A DNA stretch of 64,000 nucleotides from Eledone cirrhosa (Eukaryota), in NCBI GenBank assembly GCA_964016885.1, contig OZ024740.1:268522001-268586000 (forward strand), written 5' to 3'. The position numbers and the translations under genes were made by a program. Below, one piece after another: positions 1,360-64,000 of the stretch (position 1 is the first letter of the stretch; the number at the start of each line of letters is the position of its first letter). The notes under the pieces were generated by a model. That model did not search any database, was not told the DNA's origin, and saw only the letters and a program-made list of their open reading frames with translations.

Positions 1360-1580
1360 ATCAACATTGGATCGAGCGAATTGTCCGAGCCAACTTCACT
1401 GTCCCTGTCTTCCATTGGTTTTCAGGTCTTCGAATGTTAAACCAGCATCTTTGATCAGTTGGTCGACATAAGTCATCCGAGGACACCTGATGCGAAAGTG
1501 TCAGTGGGTTGGCATCCACAAAAGAAGCCTGCTAACAAGCTTATTTTTGCTTTGGAAGCAGTGCCCAGTGTATCTTATCT
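1360..1580 (-). mobile_element. RTE LINE 3' fragment, degenerate
   Basis: Minus-strand translation RYTGHCFQSKNKLVSRLLLWMPTH*...TYVDQLIKDAG...MEDRD matches the RTE C-terminal GH...W.P...T..D pattern; contains a stop and a frameshift. Confidence 0.65.
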
Positions 1581-1946
1581 TTCTTTCCCTAACTATTTAT
1601 AAAACAATAAATTAAACATTTATGATATATCATCGCAAACCATTCGTACCAGCAGTTTTAAATATGACTGTTATATCTGTTCAGTTATTGTTTTGTCCCA
1701 GGTAAGCTTTGACATAGTAAACCTATGATTAGAGAAATTCTAGTTGCGACAACCCCGACTTTCTAGACAGTTCAACTCAAACTAGATTTGGCACTTCTAA
1801 ACTCATTTTTCAAAGCTATTTGCATGAGTTTTTTAGACACAACCTAATCAAAAAATCCCTTCTCTGATATTTACGTGATATTTTCCCTTCTCTGATATTT
1901 ACGTGTATTTAATACTTTTCATTTGCTGGTAAAGTAAAAACGTTGA

Positions 1947-2024
1947 TTTGAGAAAGCAATTGAAATCTAACTCAATTTAAGGCTGTAGCCTTAAAATGAG
2001 TTAGATTTCAATTGCTTTCTCAAA
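1947..2024. repeat. Near-perfect palindrome (38-bp arms, 2-nt loop, 1 mismatch)
   Basis: TTTGAGAAAGCAATTGAAATCTAACTCAATTTAAGGCT-GT-AGCCTTAAAATGAGTTAGATTTCAATTGCTTTCTCAAA. Confidence 0.9.
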
Positions 2025-2895
2025 CACTCAAATCAACAGAGAACCTTTGCGTGGTCGTTAAAAAGCTACAAATATTAGTAAAATCTTCCTAAAATTACAC
2101 CCTATGTCTTGAAAAGAGAAAGACACATTAGATGATGTAATCCTATACATACAATGTCAGAGAAAACCGATGGAATCGTCATGGCTGGAAGGATTAAGCT
2201 CATGTCTGTTCAGATCTGTATAAACGTTTACACACACATTTTAGGGAGATAACTCCTAAATTAGAAATGAAGTCAATAAGTTAAGACACTTATCTCCCCT
2301 GTATCTGCGTATTTCGTAGGAGGATATTCTAAATCAAACTCATACACCTCTGTGTAGAATATTTAAGAAAACAATCTTTTAAAAGTAAAATTCTAGATAC
2401 ATTAGTTAAATTTGTTTTGGTACATTTTATAATTATTATAATTCAATGAAAATGAAAATAAAGACACATTTAAAAAAAATATCAAATAGCATTGTTTTAT
2501 AATATGATGTTACTATCGCTAGCAACTTATATAATCGCAATTTTTTCGCATGAGTTATGCGAAAGAAAAACTGAATTTCAAATAGACATGATGAACTAGT
2601 AAAGTCAGACGTCCTGTTGACTTTTGAGGTAACGTTTTTGATTGAGAAGACGAACTTCTTTTTCAAGATTATTTTCCTTGAACGTAGAATACACACTATA
2701 CGACAAGTAAGCAAAGGGAATGGACACTATAGCCAGAGAGGCAAAACGAAAACGTCGGAAAATCTTTGGATCCATTTCTGAGTCAGGGAATAGTCAGATT
2801 TAAAAACTAGAGAAATTCGGAACAAAAGCACCGATAGAATTTTGAATGATAACCTTGAGTTGTTATTGTTTTTCAACAGAGTTGTTTCGGACAAA

Positions 2896-3063
2896 TTATT
2901 CGTCCTCCGACTTCAATTCCTCAGTAGTCATTTGCTTCTTTTTCAGTTCTTCGTTATACTTTTGAATAGATGGTTTCCAAATGTATATTCCACTTACAAT
3001 ACCAACAACGGCAGCTAATATTATTTGGTCCCAACTAAGTCGGCGACGAGGTAGAAGCCGCAT
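2896..3063 (-). CDS. PIGBOS1: PIGBOS1-like single-pass microprotein, 55 aa
   Basis: Intact ATG..TAA ORF MRLLPRRRLSWDQIILAAVVGIVSGIYIWKPSIQKYNEELKKKQMTTEELKSEDE. Aligns without gaps to human PIGBOS1 as I recall it (RRLTFAQLLFATVLGIAGGVYIFQP), with similar length, one TM helix and a charged tail. It sits in unique sequence. Confidence 0.85.
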   Translation of the reverse strand: MRLLPRRRLSWDQIILAAVVGIVSGIYIWKPSIQKYNEELKKKQMTTEELKSEDE

Positions 3064-3720
3064 AGTCAACAATTCTAAGCGAATTGAAGTGATCTCCCTT
3101 CGTATAACCTCTTCACTTTTGAGTTATACCCGTTTTATTTTTGCTCTTCAGCAAGTACTAAGCGAATCTTCAATAACCAAGTCAACCGGGTATCTACAGA
3201 TACAAGTATTGATATTTCCTTATCTTTTTTTTTTTTAAGACACCCTACTTTAGTATTGCTAAATGTAGTTGCGAGTTAAATTTTAGTGGTACGATAAAAA
3301 TCATGATGTTTGGTGACAATTATAAAGGTTTATAATTTAGAATTTGTTCCATATCTACTGTTTGGGATAAGGCAGTAGGGTGCAGTTTTCAGACGAAAGG
3401 GTTAATAATGCTCTCTCTCACACACACATACACACACAACAATATAATTATTTTGTTAATAATTATATGTACTTTAAATGTTCTTTAAATGTACTTTAAA
3501 AATAATAGTATAGATCTGATGGGGAGCCTGTGTTCTTTGAGGCAATTAAATGTGGCCTTTTCTAAGAAGTCTTGATTATACAAAAAATTTACGCTTTTGT
3601 TGTATATAATTATTATATATTAAGTGAATTATTATTTTATATATATTTCAAACATAGATATTCCATTATCACAATGGTTGTAATTACATTTTATCAAATA
3701 TATATATATATGTGTCTACT

Positions 3721-3864
3721 CTGGGATTTTACATAACATTACCTATTGAGTACACTGAGATGCAACTTATTATATATATAATAAGTTGACGAGACTAGCA
3801 TGGGTTTCACTGCTAGTACCGGTTGCATCTCGGCCTCCTCAATAGGTAATATGTAAAATCCCAG
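3721..3864. repeat. Short fold-back, probably PLE terminal-repeat derived
   Basis: 3721-3766 is an imperfect inverted copy of 3821-3864. The loop holds a degenerate hammerhead (TTGACGA-GACTAGCA..TGCTAGT-[CGAA missing]-ACCGGT). Confidence 0.6.
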
Positions 3865-4362
3865 ATTAGATGCATAGTTATTCGCTTCAATACAATACAC
3901 GTAAATGGGTACCTTCAATCTATACCCATACTTTAGTTTCAGCCACACTTAATGCAAGAATACACAGCATTATGCAACAGTGCACAATCGGTGCATGTGG
4001 CTTCATCAGCGGGTTTCGCCTAATCAATAACCAATCGATCGACAGAATTCGATTCTAGTTCATGTCGGCTATGACAGTGAATGTGATGGCCAACACAGTA
4101 AAACATTAGCAACTGAAATCTCTACATATCATCACAATGCCATCAAAAGATTGGCTACTGGTTCAGAAATTTACGTGACGGTAGGAGACGAAATTCAATT
4201 AGTTCTGCTCCTGCCATAAGCACTCAGCCAACGTATCGCAAACACAAATTAACAAGTGAGTGAAAAATCGGTTATTAGAGAAAATCAGTCTCCAATCATT
4301 GTACAATAGAATGGTAGCATTCGGCTCCAGTCTCGAAGTACCATGGCAAGAAATAGTTCACT

Positions 4363-4399
<37 letters not shown>

Positions 4400-4402
4400 T
4401 AC

Positions 4403-4900
4403 CATCGGTACTCTGAAATAGCGATGTATGAATGAATGTATGTATAGTATATTTGATAATATACTGTATGTTTATTTTAAAACATTTTGAAGACCATTAG
4501 CTATGAGTTTTAAAGTAGTGACTACGTCACTTACTTGGTCTCGGAAAACGCAAAGGGAAACAACCGACGGCCGTTTCTCACAAATTAGCGATTGTCAAGA
4601 TTACATATCCTTTCGCTTCTGCCGAGATTTAGAGAAACTGAATTTTTATAGAATTCCAGTGATGTTTAAGAGTTGATTAAACAGTGCGGTTGCCATTCCA
4701 GCAAAAATTTGGTATTAGTATCGGTGCTCTGAAATAACAATGTATGTATGTATATTTGATAATATACTGTATGTTTATTGCTTTTGCCAAGACCAAGTAA
4801 GTGACGTAGTCACTACTTTAAAACTCATAACGAATGGTCTTCTAAATGTTTAAAAATAAACATACAGTATATTATCAAATATACTATACATACATTCATA
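4403..4900. repeat. Element with direct plus inverted internal repeats, flanked by (TA)n
   Basis: About 4405-4475 recurs directly at 4720-4779; about 4430-4548 recurs inverted at 4782-4900. Confidence 0.75.
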
Positions 4901-5018
4901 TACACACACACACATATATATTCAATTGAAGAAAGTTGGTTGATTGAAAATCTGCCAACATTTTCTTAACAGATGTAAAGTACACCACGGTTTTTGTTTT
5001 GTCCGGAGTTTTATTATA

Positions 5019-5140
5019 ATAATAAACAAGAAAGACGGTTTCATTTGTACATCCCTATTTATTTTGTTATATGTCTTTGAAATGCATATAACAAAATAAA
5101 TAGGGAGATACAAATGAAACCGTCTTTCTTGTTTATTATA
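5019..5140. repeat. Fold-back hairpin (about 55-bp arms)
   Basis: ATAAACAAGAAAGACGGTTTCATTTGTAC... is inverted to ...TACAAATGAAACCGTCTTTCTTGTTTAT; ends in (TA)n. Confidence 0.8.
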
Positions 5141-5147
5141 TATATAT

Positions 5148-5445
5148 ATCATCATCATCATCATCGTCGTCGATTAACGTCTATCTTCCATGCTAGCATC
5201 GGTTAGACGGGTTTGTCTCAATTAGAGGCAAGTTGGGTCAGATGACCATGTCTTGCTCATCTATGAGAGTTTCTGGCTGGTTTTTTACGGCTGGATGCCC
5301 TTCCTAATGCCAACCACATTGACAGTGTGTGCTGGGTGCTTTTTGCCGTGTCTTTCACATGTCCACTTTACGGTGTGGGTTGGGTGTTTTGGGGCTAGTT
5401 TTCTACAGCTGGACGCCCTTCCTAACGCCAACCTCATTTACAGTA
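5148..5445 (-). mobile_element. RTE 3'UTR / RTE-tailed SINE fragment
   Basis: (CAT)n tail and GGATGCCCTTCCTAA motif shared with the RTE 3'UTR at 21187-21560. Confidence 0.75.
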
Positions 5446-5585
5446 GTGGGGCTGATACCGTTGTTAGAACTCAATGTGTCCTTGGAAGTATGGTTGCAGC
5501 GAGATTCGGCAGTAGTTTTTGTGGTAGGTGATCACCACTTATGGTATCCTTAAAGAAAATCCGTCCAGGTTACTGAGTCATTTAC

Positions 5586-5899
5586 ATATATGTTTGAGAA
5601 TAGAACATTAAAAAAACAGAAGTCAGGTGTAGGTAGATAGTTCATTGTTTTACGATCATTTCAGAGGGTCAATTGATCGATGGAGATTGATGTACTGACT
5701 AGAATTGTTGTAATTAAGTTACTACTTATTTCTAGTCTTGAAATCTTTTGAGACTAGAAATAGGTAGCAACTTCATCATTACCATACTAGTCGGTACTTT
5801 GCTTTCCATCGATCAATCGACACTCTGAAACAACTGTAAAACAATGAACTATCTACCTACACCTGACTTCTGTTTTTTTTTATTGCTCTATGCTCAAAC

Positions 5900-5905
<6 letters not shown>
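5586..5905. repeat. Diverged fold-back (about 150-bp arms), PLE terminal-repeat-like
   Basis: ACAGAAGTCAGGTGTAGGTAGATAGTTCATTGTTTTAC is inverted to GTAAAACAATGAACTATCTACCTACACCTGACTTCTGT; centre near 5745. Confidence 0.75.
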
Positions 5906-5935
<30 letters not shown>

Positions 5936-7191: not shown

Positions 7192-9199
7192 TAGGGTGGC
7201 CCTTATTTTCAATTTTCTTGTTCTAATTAACAAAAAAAAATCAATCTATTCGAAATTTCAAATCAAGCGGACAACTGCAAGACGACCCTCATCGACCATG
7301 AAATTTTGAAGTTTTCACCCGGAAAGTTATTTTTTCAGATAAAGATTTTTTTTCTCTTATATAATTTTTTCTTAAATAAAAAAACTTGTTCAGACTTATT
7401 CTTGGTATTAGAAGGATAAGTGACAATAAATATAATGGGGAGGGGCAGCTTGCAAAGCTGGGGACAGAGTGCAGGTATAGGGAAAATACCTATTTTTTGC
7501 CGTCATCCAGTCGGCGACCAGCCATGAGCGAGTAAGGTTGGAGTTGCTTTCGTCCATTGAAAGAATTCTATTGCACCTAATGGTAGTGTAGAGAAATAAA
7601 ATATTAAGAATTTATACGTTAGTGATAAACAGTGAACTAATATGTCTTGTCTGTGTTTGTAAATATAAGTTAATTTATTTGTAATAACTTGTAAGCACTC
7701 GTTCATTTTGTTGTGGGGCATTATGATATAGATCTTCCCCTGTTGTGTTGGTAGCCCTGACAAAGTTATAATGCCATGTTTATAACCTCTCCATTTTTAT
7801 AATGTTATGTGGTTTGTATACTTATTTTGTGACCAAATATGATACCTTTGATGACTAATTCTTCCCTTTTTCTTTCAGAACTGTTTGTGCAGGTGTGAAA
7901 TGGCTTCTGTGACGTGTTCTTCCTAGACCTGTGAAATGGCATCATCTTCTTCAGGTAGTTCATCACACAAGTTAAGAAAAGATTTTCATGTGACTCTTAT
8001 TGGCTCCATTTCCAATCATATCATGGGTGCCAAACTTCCCTCGAATCGGCAAGTTTTAAGCTTTTTTTTCTACAATGTAAGAGTTGTAAATCTGACAACG
8101 AAGGAAAGTGCAGCATTAGTGATTCAAGAAGTTTCCATGTTTTGGCAAAAAGCACGAATTCCTACCAGAAGAACTGATCACTGCGTTGATAAAGTACTCA
8201 AACTCTATGACGAATGGAAAGGATTACAGAAAAATTTGACTAGAACTGCAGGCAAGGAAAAAGAAAAAAGAGAACTTTTTGTGGAAATGATGGACGATCT
8301 CTTTGACATTGCTCATTCAAATGCTTTGGGACAGATAAAAATTGAAGAGTATAAGAATTTCTTAATGCTTCAGTGCCAAAAAAGACAACCGGGCTTCATG
8401 GTTGGTGTAGATCAAAAACTAAAATACAAGGAAAAAAATGCACTGAAGCGCACTTCAATGGAAACTTTCAGAAAAAAAAGATTTTATGAAGAAATGCAAC
8501 AAGATTTTGTTACTCATCAGTTTGCAACATCAGAAACTGATGATTCAACATCAAACAGGTGGTGACAACAGTGAAAATTCCTCTGTCATTATTCAGCAAT
8601 AATTGTTTCTACTTTTGGCACAAAGCCAGCAATTATTCCAGTTCATTAGTGGTACTTTATTTTATTGACCCTGTAAGGATGAAAGGCAAAGTTAACCTCG
8701 GCGGGATTTGAACTCAGACCATAAAGGGGCATAATTATGCTGGAAAGAATGGTGTCCAATCCTCTACCGATACATGCCAATCCATGTTCAATATTCAATG
8801 TTCACATTATGTTTTTCATTATATAAAAATTATTGTTGTAAATAAAAATGTGTTTCTCTTATAGAAGTTGTGTGGATAATTAGGAAAACCTAATATTTCT
8901 TAACTTTTTCATGTTATTTCAGGAATCTTTCAAATTAACTATTGGTAAATTTGATTCAGATTGGGGGTTGCCTGGATGTGTGCACATAAATTTCTCTAAG
9001 AAGAAAAAAGAAAATGGTCTTTTGAAAAGAATTAATTGTTGCATATACTATGTTCCAACTTCAAGGAGTTTGAGGGTCGCGTAACAGTTGTTCAATTGAA
9101 ATTTTGCACACCCCATTTTTTTTGTTGATAGAAAGAGGATTAGTGGGTGGCAACAAAATTTTAACTTTTGGAAAATTATCTATTGCTAAAGGCCACCCT

Positions 9200-10371: not shown

Positions 10372-11681
10372 ATCATCATCATCATCATCGTTTAACGTCC
10401 ATGTTCCACGCTTGCATGGGTTTGGACGGGAGTTTTCCCACTTGAGGCAAGAGTGGTTGTCATTGCTCGCATAGGACTGTCTTGCGGGTTTTCTACGGCT
10501 GGATGCCCTTCCTAACACCAACCACATTTACAGTGCGGGACTGGGAGGTTTTTACCGTGTTGCCTACACGGCCACATTACAGCGTGAACTGTGTTTTTTT
10601 GTCGTGACACCTACACGATCTCGTTTGTTTCGGCCTGGATGTTGTGGCACCAACATAACTTTACATTGAAAGGGGCGGCGTGGATGGGGTGGGGGTTGTG
10701 GGACGGGGTGTATTTTGTTAGAGATGCCTACTGACTGTAGTAGGTTTTACTTTGTATTTAGGTAAGGTGGTTCTTCTCTATTACTGAGTACCGCCAAAGA
10801 TCTCGGTCCAGTGACATTGTCTTGGAGAGGTGTAAGTGTGTGAGGTTGGAATTTATCAGGTCATCCCAGGTTTTTCTGGGTCTGCCTACTCCGTGGCTAC
10901 CGTCTATCTTTATTGCCCTGCACTTTTTTATACAGCTGTCGTCTTTCATGCGCATCACGTGACCATACCAACGTAGCCTTCTCTCGAGTAAACAACATCT
11001 GATCCCTCTTATTTCTAATTTTTCCATTAGTTCATTTATGCTTTACCGTTCACGTATATTACTATTACACATCCAGCGGAGCATGCAAGCTTCGTTCCTC
11101 TCTAGTCTGCGTATATCCTCTGCACACAATGCCCAGGTCTCACTGCCATGCAACATTGCTGTTCGTATGCAGGCATCATACAGCCTGCCTTTCATTTTTA
11201 GGGAGAACCCTTTAGCGGCTAATAGTGGTATAAGCTCTCTGAACTTTTTCCATCCAGTTCTGACTCTAGCTACTGTACTTTCCGAGCACCCTCCCCCACT
11301 GCTGATTTTGTCACCCAGGTAGCGGAAGCTGTCCACTATTTCTATAGAACCATCTGTGCAGTGGAATGAGTTAGTATTCTGTGGGCACTTGCTGCTACTT
11401 ATTGCACCAGAGCACCGGCCACATGTAAAATCTATGTTCTTAGTTAGCTTACCTGTGATCCCACAACATCTTTTATGCACCCATACTTTGCATTTGGGAC
11501 ATAAAATGGAGTTTCTACCTACGCCTTTCCTACACACTGAGCATGGCCATTTCCTGGAAGGGACCGGCGCCTTATTTTCTTTCCTACAAACTAGAACTTT
11601 AGTCTTAGCCAGGTTAATTTTAAGGCCTTTTGATTCTAGGCCGTGTTTCCATGTTTGGAATTTCTTCTCTAGCTCGGCCAT
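10371..11681 (-). mobile_element. 5'-truncated RTE LINE, same subfamily as 18136-21560
   Basis: ORFs 11043-11681 and 10758-11027 are nearly identical to the C-terminus of the 655-aa ORF; 3'UTR and (GAT)n tail present. Confidence 0.95.
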
Positions 11682-12015
11682 TGCTCCAGTTTACTCAGCT
11701 CTAGAAATGAGATGATAGGACTGGGGTCCATATCATTCTACTGCAAAGTGGTCGTGTAGGTGCCATGGCAAAAAAAAGGACTCAGCCCACACTGTAAAGT
11801 CGATGTGTAGGCGCCACGGAAAAAAAACACCCAGTACTCACTGTAAATGAGGTTGGTGTTAGGAAGGGCATCCAGCTGTAGAAATCAAGCCAGAATCAGT
11901 TCCCGTATGAGCAAGACTAGGTCAGCAGACTGGACAGTGCCCACAATAGGACAACCCGTCTAACCCATGCTAGCATGGAAGAACGGACGTAAAACGGTGA
12001 TGATGATGATGATGA
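11682..12015 (+). mobile_element. 5'-truncated SINE B-like element with RTE tail
   Basis: CTCCAGTTTACTCAGCT..GAAATGAG as in 6611-6945; (GAT)n tail. Confidence 0.8.
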
Positions 12016-18134: not shown

Positions 18135-21100
18135 AACGCAATCCAAAACTTCAGAGTTGGTACCATAAATGTAGGCACCTTAAAAGGTCGCTCTAACGAG
18201 GTTGTAGAAATGCTTGAACGTAAGGAGGTCGATGTTTGTTGTATTCAAGAGACCAGGTGGAGGGGTGGGTCTGCTAGATTCATTGTGGGTAAAGAACGAT
18301 GCTATAAGCTTTTCTGGGTGGGAAAGGACAATGGGCTGGGTGGAGTAGGAATCACGGTAGCAGAAAAGTGGGCAGATAAGATAATAGATGTAAATAGAGT
18401 GAACAAACAGAATAATTAAAATAAGACTTGTCCTCAATAGAACTACTGTGACAGTAATATCTGCGTATGCACCCCAATCCGGACTGCCCGGCACTATAAA
18501 AGACAGATTCTATGAGACACTGATGCTCACTACCTCCCAAATAACCGACAGTGACTATATAATTATTGCTGGCGACCTAAATGGTCACGTTGGACAACAT
18601 TGTGATGGCTATTATGGAATCCATGGAGGCTATGGGTTTGGTACTAGAAATGAGGAAGGCTCCAGAATCCTGGAATTCTGTGACGCAAATAACCTAACTA
18701 TCTGTAACACTAACTTCAAAAAACGAGACAATCACTTGATCACCTATAGATCGGGGGAACACACAAGCCAGGTAGATTATATCCTTACCAGGAGACGTGA
18801 CAGAGTGTCTGTTGTAAACACTAAATCCCTCCCCCATGAAGAATGCACGTCTCAACATAGACTCATAATTAGCGACCTCATAGTCAGGACGAGACGTATT
18901 CGACAACAGAAGAGGACTATCCTCAGGAGAAAAATATGGAAATTAAAGGACCCCACAGCCAGTAATAAATTTAAAAGCATATTACTTGATGCTTTTGATA
19001 GTAAGGAAGAGCAATTAGAGTCGTACAATATAGAGGAACAGTGGGAATTCCTGAAAGCTAACCTGCTGAAGGCGACAGATGAAACCTGTGGCTGGAGCAG
19101 GCCTATAGGCAGGAGGAGAGTAACTTGGTGGTGGAACAGTAAGGTGGAGAGGCCAATCAAGGCCAAAAAGCAGGCTTGGAAAGCATGACGGGATGGGGGA
19201 AGTAGAGAAGACTATCAAGTGGCCAGGAGGGAAGCTAGGAGACAAGTGTACTTCGCAAGAAGGGAAGCAGAGGAAAGAAAGTTCAAGCATGTTCTACAAC
19301 GCGAGGACCAAAAACGTGAGGTGTTCAGGATTGCTAGGCAATGTGTCAAGGAAAACAGTGATATTGTTGGGGAGAAGTGTGTCCTTAATGATGATGGTGT
19401 ACTTGCCATCAATGACGCTGATAAGAAGGTAGCTTGGAAGTGTCACTATGAAAGGCTACTAAATGAGGAGAATAATTGGGAGAAAGACAGTCTCCCCCAC
19501 ATCGACCCAATAGAGGGACCAGCAGTGTTAGTTGAAGGTAGTATAATAAGTAAGGCGATGAAAGACATGAAGATGGGCAAGGCGGCCGGGCCTTCGGAAA
19601 TAGTTGCCGAAATGCTGAAAGCATCTGGAACGGTGGGACACACTATGGTCACCCGGATAGTAAACCAAGTCATACAGAATGGGGTCGTTCCGAAGGACTG
19701 GCACAGCAGCATCATCATTAACTGCTACAAGGGTAAAGGTGATGCCCTAGATAGGGGAAACTATAGAGGCATTAAATTAATTGACCAGGTCATGAAGGTC
19801 ACAAAAAAAGTAATAGCACAACTAATCAGAGAGCGAATCGTTCTAGACGAAATGCAGTTCGGGTTTGTGTCAGGTAAAAGTACAACAGACGCTCTTTTCA
19901 TTGTACGACAACTACAGGAGAAGTACCTAGCTAAAAGTAAACCCCTATACTTAGCTTTTGTTGAGTTGGAGAAAGCCTTTGACAGAGTACCCCACTCGAT
20001 TATCTGGTGGGCCCCGAGAAAACTAGGTGTTGATGAATGGCTTGCGAGAGCTATACAAGCCATGTATAAAGAAACAGTCAGCAAGGTTAGAATTAACAAC
20101 GAATATAGTGAAGAGTTTAGCGTAAAAGTTGGTGTTCATCAGGGCTCCGTCCTTAGCCCCCTACTATTTATTATTGCCCTTCAGGCTATAACAGAGGAGT
20201 TCAAGACCGGCTGCCCATGGGAACTCCTATATGCAGATGATCTAACGCTCATAGCTAAATCAATGGCTGAACTAGAGAAGAAATTCCAAACATGGAAGCA
20301 TGGCCTAGAATCAAAAGGCCTTAAAGTTAACTTGTCTAAGACTAAAGTTCTAGTTTGTAGGAAGGAAAATATGGCACCGGTCCCATCTGGGAAATGGCCA
20401 TGCTCAGTGTGTAGGAAAGGAGTAGGTAGAAACTCCATTTTATGTCCCAAATGCAAAGTATGGGTACATAAAAGATGTAGTGGGATCACAGGTAAGCTAA
20501 CTAAGAATATAGATTTTATATGTGGCCGGTGCTCTGGTGCAATAAGTAGCAGCAAGTGCCCACAGAATACTAACTCATTCCATTGCACAGATGGTTCTAT
20601 AGAAATAGCGGACAGCTTCCGTTACCTGGGTGACAAAATCAGCAGTGGGGGAGGGTGCTCTGAAAGTACAGTAGCTAGAGTCAGAAAGGGATGGAAAAAG
20701 TTCAGAGAGCTTATACCACTATTGGCCGCTAAAGGGTTCTCTCTAAAAATGAAAGGCAGGCTGTATGATACCTGCATACGAACAGCAATGTTACATGGCA
20801 GTGAGACCTGGGCATTGTGTGCAGAGGATATACGCAGATTGGAGAGAAACGAAGCTTGCATGCTCCGCTGGATGTGTAATAGTAATATACGTGAACGGCA
20901 AAGCATAAACGAACTAAGGGAGAAATTAGGAATAAGAGGGATCAGATGTTGTTTACTTGAGAGAAGACTACGTTGGTATGGTCACGTGATGCGCATGAAA
21001 GACGACAGCTGTATAAAAAAGTGCAGGGCAATAAAAATAGACGGTAGCCACGGAGTAGGCAGACCCAGAAAAACCTGGGACGACTTGATAAATTCCGACC

Positions 21101-21186
21101 TCATACACTTACACCTCTCCAAGACAATGTCACTGGACCGAGATCTTTGGCGCTACACAGTAATAGAGAAGAACCACCTTACCTAA
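18135..21186 (+). pseudogene. RTE polyprotein ORF with one frameshift (about 18405) and one in-frame TGA (19186-19188)
   Basis: ORFs 18448-19188 and 19219-21186 are in the same frame, separated by a single TGA; 18210-18419 is shifted by one base; no start ATG upstream of the APE domain. Confidence 0.9.
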
Positions 21187-27595: not shown

Positions 27596-30363
<2,768 letters not shown>

Positions 30364-31699: not shown

Positions 31700-34557
31700 C
31701 CATAGTGGCCGTATTTCAGGTTGAGGAGGGTGGGGGTGGGGTGGGAAGGAGGTAGAGGGGCTAAAAAGGGGAAGTCATTTTTAGTCATCGGGCATTAACA
31801 CTGGCTTAAGGTATTTGAAATTTGCAAAGTTCTTGTGCATGCTGTTCGGGGAGTGTTCAGAGAGTTTGTTCATTAGAGGGCCCTTGGCGAATAAAATTTC
31901 GTAGCTCTCTGAGTTACAAAGATTCACAGCCCTTGTGTCCTCCGTTGTAAGAGCGCGCTCTCTGGAGTATTTTCCATTTAAGCGTGAAGTGGGTGGATTT
32001 CCATTAGAGGTCCCAAACAGGAGGCGAGTGTTGTCTGGTTTGATTTGTCCGGTCTTCTGAAGGAGTGGGTATGGGCATACCAACGGATCTTAAAGTTATT
32101 GAAAGTCATGCCGATGTAAGTCTTTTTGTTATTGCAATCATCGGTGCCTGAGATGACATCGCATTTGTATACGATATCATTTGTCAGGCATTTGTTTTCA
32201 AGTGGGCAGGCTTCCTTATTTAGGCAATTATACAAGGCCCCAGTCCGGGATTAGGTTCGGAGGTGGTTGGCTTATTTAATTTTTTAGAATTGTGTTTGGC
32301 TATATTCCTAGCTAGGTTATGTGTGGTGGAGTAGGAGAGTCTTATTGTGTTCTTATTAAAGATGGTGTAGTACCTTTGTTGTGTGGGGGAGTGTGTTTTC
32401 AGCAAAGTGAAGAAAATCCTAGCTATCGGTGTAGAGACCTCTCTATTGAAGGGAGGGTTGTACCAGCTAATCTGCCCATGCCTATTCCTCCTCTGCAATC
32501 TTGCGGTGGTTACTAGGTAGGTTATCCGCTGCGGGCGAGGGCGTCATTGTAGTAGGAGGCAGAGGCGTTAAAAATATCTTCGTTGGCAGAGAGGCCAGAG
32601 ATTCTAATAGAGACGCTTTTTACTAAGTTATCAGTGATGTTTTTGGGGTGGTTAGAATTAACATTAATATATCTAAGGGACTCGTTAGGTTTATGGTACG
32701 GGTAATAGAGGGAAGTATCTAGGTCGAGAGTGACATCTAAGAAGTTGGCCCTAGTCATATTAGATTCTATAGTTATACTAAATCCTAGATTAGAGAAGAA
32801 CGAGCTTAAGTTTCTCCGAAACCCATCGGTGGTTCTGGGGTTAACCGTGTGCTGGGCGAAGAGGCCGTCGTCTCGGTATAAACCTCCGGTTAGGCCAGTA
32901 AAGAGGTTCTTCAGGTGATGTAAAATGTACAAGCCCACAAGGTCGCTAATTTCAGCCGAGTCACTCGCTCTCATGCTGACGTCAAATGGGGTCTGAGACT
33001 TCTTGTTGATCCAGTAAGATCCATCGTGGTATAGAAAGGTCTTACGGGCGTGGAGGATAACAACTTGCTCAGCATCGGTAATGGTGGTAAAATTCCTGGC
33101 AAAGGTAATTGCATCCTTCAGGAGGGGCTCCGAGATAGAAGCATAGTAGTTTTCTATGTTGAGTTCCAGGAAGCGAGTGTGGCGTTTGTCGGGTAATTCT
33201 TGGAACCAGGATATTGCCTCAGATGTTCTGCTCCAGAGTGGGAGTGGTGAGGCAACCTGCAATGATGGTAGAACTCTATCTAGGATCTTCTTACTGATAG
33301 AGCCGATGTCTGAACGAGTGGGGTTGATAAGTCTGACTGATGTTTTGTTGAGGAAGTTTCCCTTAAGGTCCTTCAGGGTAAAGTGCGGGGTCTTTACCCT
33401 TAAAGGTTCGGTTCGGTCATGTAATTTAAGGGACTTGGCGATTTCTTTTCCGGCCGCGTTTGTCTCAGTCAATGCCATCTCTATTACCTTTTTGTAGGTG
33501 CTCGTGATGGCCTTTTTTGACAGCTTATTGTAGGTCTGTGGGTCTACCTCATAAACGTTTTTGGTTTTATCGGAGGAGACATGGAGATTAGGGGATTTAT
33601 TTATATTCCGCAATTCAGTATTTAAGTAGGCCTGGAATGGTGTGGTGGCTCTACGGAATTTGATATCTTTGATCATCTTGAAGAGGTCTTCTTCAAATGG
33701 CTCAAGTATGCTGTTGGTGGGTGGTGCCTTATTCGTTTTGAAGCCGAACTTCTCATCATTGGTAAATGCTACATCAGGGTTGTCGAGGAAGAAGGCTCTC
33801 CATCTAATTCGCTTGATGAATTCGTCGGTACGTCTGATGAGTGTTTTTAGGTATAGTTTCCTTGGAGGAATAGAGATGTTCTTCATGGAGACATCAAGGT
33901 CGAGTTTGGTCAGCATAGTTTCTTGGTGATGGTTATAAGGGGCACAGAGAGTGCTAAAAGGTACGTTATTCCGGGTTGAATCGGAGGTAACCACAGTAAG
34001 TAAGTTACTCAATACATAGCAGAGTATAACAGTTTTAATATAGATGAGATTCTACAGGACTAGAACTGTTTCATTCTTTAGAAATCATCAGGAATCAGGG
34101 TATCAACAAATAAATATGGTATTTATAGGTCTCTTCAGGTGGTAGGAGAGGGTGGGGAGTGGGATGGGTAGAGGTCATTGGTTGATAGAAAAGGGAATTC
34201 ATTAAAAGCTAATTCTTTAAAGCTATAATTTATATTTAGAGTAACAAAGGCAGAAAGAATTCTATATACATATATTAACAGGCGTTTACAGAAATTTATT
34301 AAGTTCTTATAAATAACAATCGAAGAGTGTTTAAAACATTTAATTTGTTACTCTAAATATAAATTATAGCTTTAAAGAATTAGCTTTTAATGAATTCCCT
34401 TTTCTATCAACCAATGACCTCTACCTATCCCACTCCCCACCCTCTCCTACCACCTGAAGAGACCTATAAATACCATATTTATTTTTTGATACCCAGATTC
34501 CTGATGATTTCTAGAGAATGAAACAGTTCTAGTCCTGTAGAATCTCATCTATATTAA

Positions 34558-63430: not shown

Positions 63431-64000
63431 CGGGTCAATGCGGCCGGACTTCTTCCATCGTCTGGAGACTTTTCTGGGGACGTCCCGCTCCTTGCTATTA
63501 GTGGGGGACTGGAATGGTATCCTAGATGCACGCTGGGACTACGTAGGGGCCTGCCCCGATAGAGAGGGGTGTAATAGCCTCAAAGGGTTAATCGGTCGAT
63601 TTGACCTGGCCGATAGATATCGACTAGATTTTCCGACTGCGCCAACCTGGACTTGGGCAAATCGTAGCGGATCATCTAGGTCGTACCTAGATAGGTTCTT
63701 AGTTAGAATTAAGGATAAGGACATTTTAAGTTGTCCAAAAATGCGCATGGTTGGCTATTCAGACCACAAATTAGTGACCTGCATGGTCAACCTTGACAGA
63801 ACTCATAGACAGGGCCCCGGTTACTGGAAGCTCAACTTGTCCTTGCCGGCAAGTAGAGCCTACAGGAATCGGATTAGTACGTTAGTTAAGGAACGGTTGA
63901 CTGGAGCGATCGTCAACAACAGGTGGTGGGTATCTCTAAAGAGAGAGATTAGAGTAGTCTCGATAGAATTTAGTAAGGTTCTAGCTGCGGATAGGAATAG
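63431..64000 (+). mobile_element. Tx1/L1-clade LINE ORF2, APE domain, open to the window end
   Basis: Uninterrupted frame from 63438 with LVGDWNGILD, TWTW, SYLDRFLV, YSDHKLV, GPGYWKLN. Absent from the ORF track because no stop occurs within the window. Confidence 0.88.

What the first reader, a model, noticed from the sequence alone, without database searches (positions are those of the whole stretch)
2896..3063. Hidden PIGBOS1-like microprotein gene (55 aa), below the ORF-track cutoff
Seen: intact minus-strand ORF MRLLPRRRLSWDQIILAAVVGIVSGIYIWKPSIQKYNEELKKKQMTTEELKSEDE in non-repetitive DNA, with a candidate 5'UTR splice acceptor (TTGTATCTGTAG, exon starting at 3193). Established: human PIGBOS1 is a 54-aa mitochondrial outer-membrane microprotein that binds ER CLCC1 and tunes the unfolded-protein response. 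The pattern RRL-[ST]-aromatic-x-Q...V-x-GI-x-x-G-[IV]-YI-aromatic-x-P plus a charged tail matches without gaps (human sequence recalled from memory). Inference: an invertebrate, probably mollusc, orthologue that gene predictors would easily miss, implying deep conservation of this ER-mitochondria contact module. No PIGB exons were recognised in the window.
Basis: partly seen in the sequence, partly recalled or inferred. Interest (0 to 1): 0.85.

Follow-up and report, generated by a model that had tools for sequence, protein, structure and literature searches.

The report
PIGBOS1 gene with hidden second microprotein
A 55-residue reading frame here belongs to the PIGBOS1 family of small mitochondrial membrane proteins, and 120 bases behind it lies an overlooked 56-residue frame that likely makes a second membrane protein from the same messenger and faintly resembles the extra half fused to PIGBOS in fruit flies.

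Summary
ORF1 (3063-2896, minus strand) is real and is a PIGBOS1-family member: Pfam PF23670, 54.5 bits against a cut-off of 27. That alone is ordinary. The family has fungal and plant members, the fly orthologue is already studied (PMC12740097), and this scan noted a placozoan PIGBOS1 before. CLCC1 binding and the 3193 splice site are untested.

Only one weak AUG and no poly(A) hexamer lie between the two starts and stops. One contig of a run of unrecorded type spans both ORFs. Fly PIGBOS is 129 aa with a second membrane helix. By eye ORF2 matches that half at 11 of 56 positions without gaps, helices in register (chance about 1-10%; suggestive only). No ORF2 homologue was found in any database.

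Best reading: a bicistronic microprotein gene read by leaky scanning (about 0.6). Side result: a metagenome contig keeps the human-like head-to-head PIGB/PIGBOS1 layout, which was not found in this window.

The parts
2896..3063 (-). ORF1, 55 aa, PIGBOS1-family single-pass membrane microprotein; start context A at -3, C at +4 (medium)
2965..3021 (-). Most hydrophobic 19 codons of ORF1 (residues 15-33, KD 1.71), holding the G21-x-x-x-G25 motif; V20-G25, Y27 and I28 are invariant in 4 of 4 aligned family members
2929..2931 (-). The only AUG between the two starts: in frame inside ORF1 (Met45), weak context (C at -3, A at +4)
2776..2895 (-). 120-nt spacer: no AUG, three further in-frame stops (2865, 2802, 2796), none of 12 poly(A) hexamer variants; acceptor-like AG before 2777
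2605..2775 (-). ORF2, 56 aa, same frame as ORF1, strong start context (A at -3, G at +4), basic N-terminus, one predicted membrane helix, charged tail; no family found
2689..2745 (-). Predicted transmembrane segment of ORF2 (residues 11-29, KD 1.44)
2536..3062 (.). One unbroken 527-base contig of run X4 (second sample, library type not on record), 0 differences, covering ORF1, spacer and ORF2
   Evidence: table 8, record 26
2536..3193 (.). CpG-rich island over the whole unit (observed/expected 1.20, against 0.71 and 0.42 in the flanks and 0.67 in the window)
2496..2501 (-). First poly(A)-signal-like hexamer (TATAAA) downstream of ORF1; it lies beyond ORF2. Candidate only
3064..3193 (-).

Best explanation
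A compact gene holds a PIGBOS1-family reading frame followed 120 bases later by a second 56-codon frame, and both are likely translated from one messenger into single-pass membrane microproteins that are predicted to act together on mitochondria. Shown: ORF1's family, ORF2's anatomy, the near absence of AUGs and of poly(A) hexamers between them, and that neither readthrough nor canonical splicing can fuse them in frame. Inferred from human and fly work: ORF1 is a signal-anchored outer-membrane protein with a cytosolic tail that self-associates through its membrane helix. Inferred from the sequence: ribosomes that scan past ORF1's medium start meet only one weak AUG before ORF2's strong start (leaky scanning as in sloth1-sloth2; re-initiation is not excluded). 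Weakest step: ORF2 is the free-standing counterpart of the second membrane module fused to PIGBOS in Drosophila, and so a PIGBOS partner.
For: ORF1: PF23670, 54.5 bits against 27. ORF2 against chance: in 5000 dinucleotide shuffles of 2536-2895, a complete ATG ORF of 56 aa or more arose in 7.2%, with an equally hydrophobic stretch in 2.0%, and also with purine at -3 and G at +4 in 0.14% (criteria chosen after seeing ORF2). AUGs between the starts: 1 against 4.6 expected, P=0.022. GC by codon position 0.47/0.32/0.37 in ORF2 and 0.50/0.32/0.36 in ORF1. Of 84 ORFs of 50-70 aa in the window, only these 2 pass a helix + purine -3 + charged-tail filter (post hoc). Atlas recognition 2431, a level reached by 91 in 100 known proteins and 9 in 100 shuffled ones. 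No poly(A) hexamer from the ORF1 stop to 2502. One X4 contig covers both ORFs without a break. Fly PIGBOS has 129 aa and two membrane helices, and both truncated forms reach mitochondria. Against the fly sequence printed, by eye and without gaps, ORF2 residue i equals fly residue i+59 at 11 of 56 positions, with hydrophobic segments in register; the best of 763 registers on an unrelated protein reaches 10, and the binomial chance over 26-74 registers is 0.01-0.11 at match rates of 0.06-0.07. Precedent: 32 of 298 conserved fly smORFs are polycistronic; sloth1-sloth2 is read by leaky scanning.
Against: ORF2 has no homologue anywhere searched: Pfam 0 families at E<=10, word-index search no candidate, phmmer over 1.84 billion representatives 0 hits at E<=0.001, PDB 0, viral contigs 0 of 23 candidates; best Atlas scores 0.89 and 0.88 are leads only. 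These searches are weak here: ORF1 itself got no hit as a single sequence. The fly likeness was counted by eye, is about 20% identity, and its chance rises to 0.28 at a match rate of 0.08 over 74 registers. The only other PIGBOS1 locus seen (L001, 1 of 1) has no second ORF (longest downstream ATG frame 17 aa). X4's library type and strand are unknown, it is one study, and a contig across two ORFs does not show one transcript. An acceptor-like site 2 nt before ORF2's ATG would allow a separate ORF2 isoform. No cross-species conservation, Ribo-seq or peptide evidence.
Confidence: 0.6

Rival explanations
1. Ordinary monocistronic PIGBOS1 gene: ORF2 is a chance frame in the 3' untranslated region and makes no stable protein.
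For: No homologue of ORF2 in any search; a 56-codon ORF arises in 7% of shuffles; L001 has no second ORF, and none is mentioned for human PIGBOS1 in the passages read.
Against: Membrane helix, strong start context, AUG depletion, ORF1-like codon-position GC, Atlas recognition above 2300 and the fly register would all have to be coincidence.
Confidence: 0.22
2. ORF2 is a real gene with its own messenger, made by splicing into the acceptor before 2777 or from a start inside the CpG island; the two are neighbours rather than one bicistronic unit.
For: Pyrimidine-rich AG 2 nt before ORF2's ATG (0.71); human and L001 PIGBOS1 ORFs sit in or look like terminal exons behind an acceptor; the CpG island covers both ORFs.
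Against: The X4 contig is unbroken across 2777 (rare forms are dropped from contigs); no poly(A) hexamer to end an ORF1-only messenger; AUG depletion upstream of ORF2 is not needed under this model.
Confidence: 0.13
3. The two frames are the remains, or a recoded form, of one two-helix protein like fly CG34310, joined by readthrough, RNA editing or splicing.
For: ORF1 and ORF2 are in one frame, 40 codons apart; the fly protein has the same order of modules.
Against: Four in-frame stops (2898, 2865, 2802, 2796). The only listed GT-purine donor inside ORF1 after the membrane helix is phase 2, whereas the acceptor before 2777 needs phase 1. The X4 contig has 0 differences from the DNA. A shared frame has a 1 in 3 chance.
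Confidence: 0.03
4. As to function: the conserved job of ORF1 is in respiratory-chain assembly or mitochondrial clustering, not CLCC1-linked ER stress signalling (compatible with either gene structure).
For: Human PIGBOS1 co-purifies HIGD2A and complex III/IV subunits; fly PIGBOS forms mitochondria-associated bodies and promotes clumping, with no mention of CLCC1; family conservation sits in the membrane helix, and tails diverge at once in 2 of 4 aligned members.
Against: Human residues 30-36 are needed for CLCC1 binding; the tyrosine at ORF1 position 36, in the matching stretch by profile offset, is shared with P0004 and the fly; CLCC1 homologues are reported throughout animals.
Confidence: 0.45

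Closest known systems
Human PIGBOS1 (Chu et al. 2019, PMC6814811; Pfam PF23670)
   Same: Family profile above cut-off; 55 against 54 aa; short basic N-terminus, one membrane helix, charged tail; whole ORF in one exon.
   Different: No PIGB exon found in this 64-kb window, whereas the human first exons overlap; a second ORF follows here; localisation and CLCC1 binding untested.
Drosophila PIGBOS / CG34310 (Koh et al. 2025, PMC12740097)
   Same: N-terminal half is clearly of the same family (shared G-I-Y-I-W-x-P and K-Y, by eye); a second hydrophobic module follows the first, and ORF2 lines up with it at 11 of 56 positions (by eye).
   Different: Fly: one 129-aa chain from two exons inside the cup locus. 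Here: two ORFs separated by four stops. Homology of the second modules is not established.
Drosophila sloth1-sloth2 bicistronic gene (Bosch et al. 2022, PMC9681215)
   Same: Two single-helix microprotein ORFs in tandem, weaker first start and stronger second start; leaky scanning shown there.
   Different: Other protein families; spacer 5 nt there, 120 nt here; Sloth1 and Sloth2 are called paralogues, while ORF1 and ORF2 give no BLASTP alignment at E<=100; translation and interaction are shown there, not here.
L001 (contig WLWD01000611.1, an unidentified intron-bearing eukaryote)
   Same: 52-aa PF23670 gene (40.5 bits), 45% identical to ORF1.
   Different: Head to head with a Glyco_transf_22 (PIGB-like) gene, ATGs 254 nt apart, tail to tail with DDX46, and no second ORF.

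Membership tests
PIGBOS1 (PF23670) | Profile score above Pfam's gathering cut-off over most of the model | tested here: met
   54.5 bits against 27; profile 2-47 of 54
PIGBOS1 (PF23670) | About 54 aa, one membrane helix near the N-terminus, charged C-terminal tail | tested here: met
   55 aa; KD 1.71 at residues 15-33; 11 charged residues in the last 20
PIGBOS1 (PF23670) | Reciprocal recovery of other family members | tested here: met
   ORF1 retrieves L001, which scores 40.5 bits on PF23670; the two-sequence profile retrieves 2 of 46 candidates, both PF23670
PIGBOS1 (PF23670) | Opposite-strand position next to PIGB (origin of the name; not shared by the fly gene) | tested here: not met
   No match to three PIGB-like exons in the window, best E=0.19; only 2.6 kb lies on the gene's 3' side within the window, and no genome is held
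PIGBOS1 (PF23670) | CLCC1-binding residues 30-36 (human numbering) | tested here: inconclusive
   By profile offset these match ORF1 34-40 (assumes profile numbering equals human numbering); Tyr36 is shared with 1 of 3 aligned relatives and the fly; the human letters came from no call
PIGBOS1 (PF23670) | Mitochondrial outer-membrane location, CLCC1 binding, effect on the unfolded-protein response | not testable with these tools
   Needs cell work
Bicistronic smORF messenger (sloth type) | One transcript holding both ORFs | tested here: inconclusive
   One contig spans both but run type and strand are unknown; no poly(A) hexamer between them
Bicistronic smORF messenger (sloth type) | Leaky-scanning layout: weaker first start, few AUGs in between, strong second start | tested here: met
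   1 AUG against 4.6 expected, P=0.022; contexts A-3/C+4 and A-3/G+4
Bicistronic smORF messenger (sloth type) | Both ORFs translated and conserved | not testable with these tools
   No related animal genome, Ribo-seq or proteome is held; ORF2 searches blank
DUF4748 (PF15932), for ORF2 | Profile match | tested here: not met
   No Pfam family at E<=10; Atlas 0.88 to a 56-aa arthropod cluster with PF15932 on 57% of members is a lead only, and ORF1 also reaches that cluster at 0.80
C-terminal module of fly CG34310, for ORF2 | Significant sequence or profile similarity | tested here: inconclusive
   11 of 56 identical by eye, chance 0.005-0.28 depending on assumptions; no alignment program was run on the fly sequence

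The most novel reading that the evidence does not exclude
PIGBOS has an unrecognised partner microprotein: it is the second ORF of a bicistronic PIGBOS messenger in this animal and the fused second membrane module of PIGBOS in Drosophila, which would make the pair an old protostome two-helix mitochondrial unit and show that the fly's 'unique' half is not unique.
Probability: 0.3. Interest if true: 0.72.

Novelty: new variant of a known kind. Interest (0 to 1): 0.48.

Why it matters
PIGBOS1 has three unreconciled reported roles: CLCC1-linked ER stress signalling, association with respiratory-chain assembly factors, and mitochondrial clumping in fly oocytes. A partner that is co-encoded in one lineage and fused in another would name a concrete interactor and explain the second helix of the fly protein. 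It can be tested at once in flies and cultured cells. If ORF2 is noise, what remains is one more annotation of a known microprotein family, plus the note that the PIGB/PIGBOS1 head-to-head layout is found outside the human genome.

Tried and rejected
No RNA holder listed: none of the 4 runs is on record as RNA. X1-X3 (about 1,400 million letters, one sample) behave like genomic DNA. X4 (88 million letters, second sample, 0.54 of the words) may be RNA, or a chromatin-enrichment library over a CpG island; this cannot be told. In X4 the depth of bin 2671-3204 (41.2) is explained by the single contig 2536-3062 (41.0), so next to nothing was laid on 3063-3204. A hole proves nothing, so the 3193 acceptor is neither supported nor refuted. 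Joints in that region may be among 4303 rows not shown; the call cannot be repeated.

ORF2 homologue searches were all blank; neither ORF is in the 15-billion exact look-up. The family alignment found nothing in viral contigs (0 of 16). Recalled likenesses of ORF2 to COA3, COX14, SMIM8 or PET100 (names from memory) got no Pfam support. ORF1/ORF2 paralogy rejected. A PIGB-like motif at 63982 is the antisense of a LINE-endonuclease-like frame. No stable RNA structure over 3193-2770 (z=-0.37); no Rfam family at its gathering score in 1500-4500 (5 sub-threshold matches). The PDB hit of the family profile to a GIY-YIG protein (E=0.00095) is taken as chance on a hydrophobic stretch. The ORF2 model is one helix (residues 3-55, pLDDT 89.7, single sequence), so no fold search was run. 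No genome or relatives are held.

Literature: no paper holds PIGBOS with 'mollus'; 5 hold PIGBOS with 'bicistronic' (4 listed, titles and abstract starts only); 1 holds CG34310; 0 hold DUF4748. The supplement of the fly smORFome preprint, which lists its 32 polycistronic smORFs, is closed and may bear on the fly locus.

Full report
1. Observation. The minus strand of 2896-3063 gives the quoted 55-aa peptide, intact. The surrounding DNA is single-copy in three genomic-looking runs. The rest of the window is mostly microsatellites and retroelement remains: of 24 longer ORFs that I chose from the 146 listed, 5 hit Pfam, as reverse transcriptase, endonuclease, PHD or a weak zinc domain, and 19 hit nothing. 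The organism is coded in the tools; an octopus-like animal is my recalled impression only.

2. ORF1 is a PIGBOS1. Pfam PF23670 scores 54.5 bits against a cut-off of 27. The three best Atlas clusters are PF23670 (0.91, 0.90, 0.90), two mostly chordate and one mostly Streptophyta. A metagenome scan gave one relative, L001, itself above the cut-off. A profile of both found two more, one from the fungus Cystobasidium. In these four sequences the invariant core is V-G-I-V-S-G-x-Y-I in the membrane helix, and the tails diverge.

3. What ORF1 probably does. Human PIGBOS is a signal-anchored outer-membrane protein with a cytosolic tail; it oligomerises, binds CLCC1 through residues 30-36, and is not a tether (PMC6814811: passages and one section). 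A 2026 preprint adds calcium signalling (10.64898/2026.01.08.697870: abstract start and one passage). A mitochondrial proteome study co-purified HIGD2A and complex III/IV subunits (PMC8664129: passages). The fly protein self-associates and clumps mitochondria. CLCC1 homologues are reported across animals (10.1101/2025.11.07.687155: passages), so the human mechanism is possible here. What is conserved, however, is the helix with its G-x-x-x-G motif. Mitochondrial location and self-association are fair inferences; CLCC1 binding is open.

4. The missed feature. On the same strand and in the same frame, 120 nt after the ORF1 stop, lies ORF2 (2775-2605): 56 aa, net +3 before a 19-residue hydrophobic stretch, then a charged tail, modelled as one helix. 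Its start has A at -3 and G at +4; ORF1's has A at -3 and C at +4. Between the starts there is one AUG, in weak context, against 4.6 expected (P=0.022). Shuffles give such an ORF with a helix in 2.0%, and with the strong context too in 0.14% (5000 shuffles; criteria set after the fact). Codon-position GC mirrors ORF1. None of 12 poly(A) hexamers occurs between the ORF1 stop and 2502, so an ORF1 messenger would be expected to run through ORF2. A CpG-rich island covers the unit. One 527-base contig of run X4 covers 2536-3062 with no difference; its library type and strand are unknown, and it is one study, so this is a hint, not proof of a transcript. Four in-frame stops and mismatched splice phases exclude a fused product by ordinary means.

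5. The fly link. The fly paper describes a second membrane helix 'unique to Drosophila' and prints the 129-aa sequence. Laid by eye without gaps, ORF2 residue i against fly residue i+59, 11 of 56 are identical, among them L-E-K and Q-Q-x-V at the same spacing, and the hydrophobic segments coincide. No alignment program was run on the fly sequence. With match rates of 0.055-0.08 and 26 or 74 registers, the chance is 0.005-0.28, and 0.01-0.11 for rates of 0.06-0.07; the rates measured against four stored proteins were 0.057-0.064. An unrelated 818-aa protein reached at most 10 in 763 registers. This is suggestive; I put homology at a little under one half if ORF2 is real.

6. Against. ORF2 has no relative in Pfam, the clustered protein set, 1.84 billion representatives, the PDB or viral contigs. 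The Atlas offers only leads under 0.9. These blanks are weak, since ORF1 alone also found none and neither ORF is in the collection. L001 has no second ORF. An acceptor-like AG just before ORF2's ATG allows a separate isoform. Nothing here shows translation or conservation.

7. Mechanism. Shown: family of ORF1; anatomy of ORF2; layout of starts, stops and hexamers. Inferred: one messenger of roughly 0.6 kb; leaky scanning, as shown for sloth1-sloth2 (PMC9681215: passages); two single-pass microproteins on mitochondria. Most speculative: that they bind, as their fusion in the fly would suggest. Bicistronic microprotein genes are not rare in invertebrates: 32 of 298 conserved fly smORFs, rarely with a conserved layout (10.1101/2022.04.24.489283: passages, no mention of PIGBOS in the main text, supplement closed). 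So the layout alone is a variant of a known kind. I found no paper on a mollusc PIGBOS and none whose title or abstract start describes a bicistronic PIGBOS (listings only; the library lacks most subscription papers).

8. Gene neighbourhood. In L001 the PIGBOS1 ATG sits 3 nt behind a strong acceptor-like site and 254 nt from the first ATG of a divergent, multi-exon Glyco_transf_22 gene (3 of 3 tested pieces hit PF03901; the name PIGB rests on recalled motifs). This matches the human layout. The same exons find nothing in this window, and the fly gene lies in cup, so the link to PIGB appears to have been lost here.

9. Verdict. Observation confirmed; interpretation partly supported. ORF1: new member of a known family (about 0.97). 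Bicistronic gene with a second microprotein: about 0.6. Partner equal to the fly's fused half: about 0.3. Interest 0.48.

Noticed in passing
L001:792-3129: PIGBOS1 gene head to head with a multi-exon Glyco_transf_22 (PIGB-like) gene, ATGs 254 nt apart: the human layout in an unidentified eukaryote. This PIGBOS1 protein is not in the exact look-up, so it is probably unannotated.
   Followed up: partly
L001:3239-5695 (-): An 818-aa DDX46 reading frame without introns, tail to tail with PIGBOS1, 109 nt between the stops.
   Followed up: partly
window 3062-3063: The X4 contig ends on the second base of ORF1's ATG, where the DNA-like runs go on. The cause is unknown: a 5' end close to the ATG, a graph branch at that base, or a filtered record.
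   Followed up: partly
window 2992-2997 (-): A consensus-like splice donor (GTAAGT) lies inside the conserved membrane-helix codons of ORF1; no sign of use in the unbroken X4 contig.
   Followed up: no
window 1947-2024: Near-perfect 38-nt inverted repeat about 0.6 kb downstream of ORF2; only sub-threshold microRNA-family matches. Probably a small palindromic element.
   Followed up: partly
window 3638-5911: Cluster of inverted repeats upstream of the gene, with arms of up to 134 nt (4425-4553/4778-4906; 5610-5743/5746-5879; 5019-5078/5080-5139).
   Followed up: no
window 18403-21186 (+): Nearly whole LINE with endonuclease, reverse transcriptase and an inserted PHD finger, broken by one stop; a second partial copy at 10758-11690 (-).
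   Followed up: no
window 7927-8565 (+): 212-aa frame without a Pfam hit, transposase-like by impression; partly covered by an X4 contig, 8101-8627.
   Followed up: no
window 28205-29532 (+) and 31978-34051 (-): Degraded retroelements that look Penelope-like (recalled); only a sub-threshold RVT_1 match for the first.
   Followed up: no
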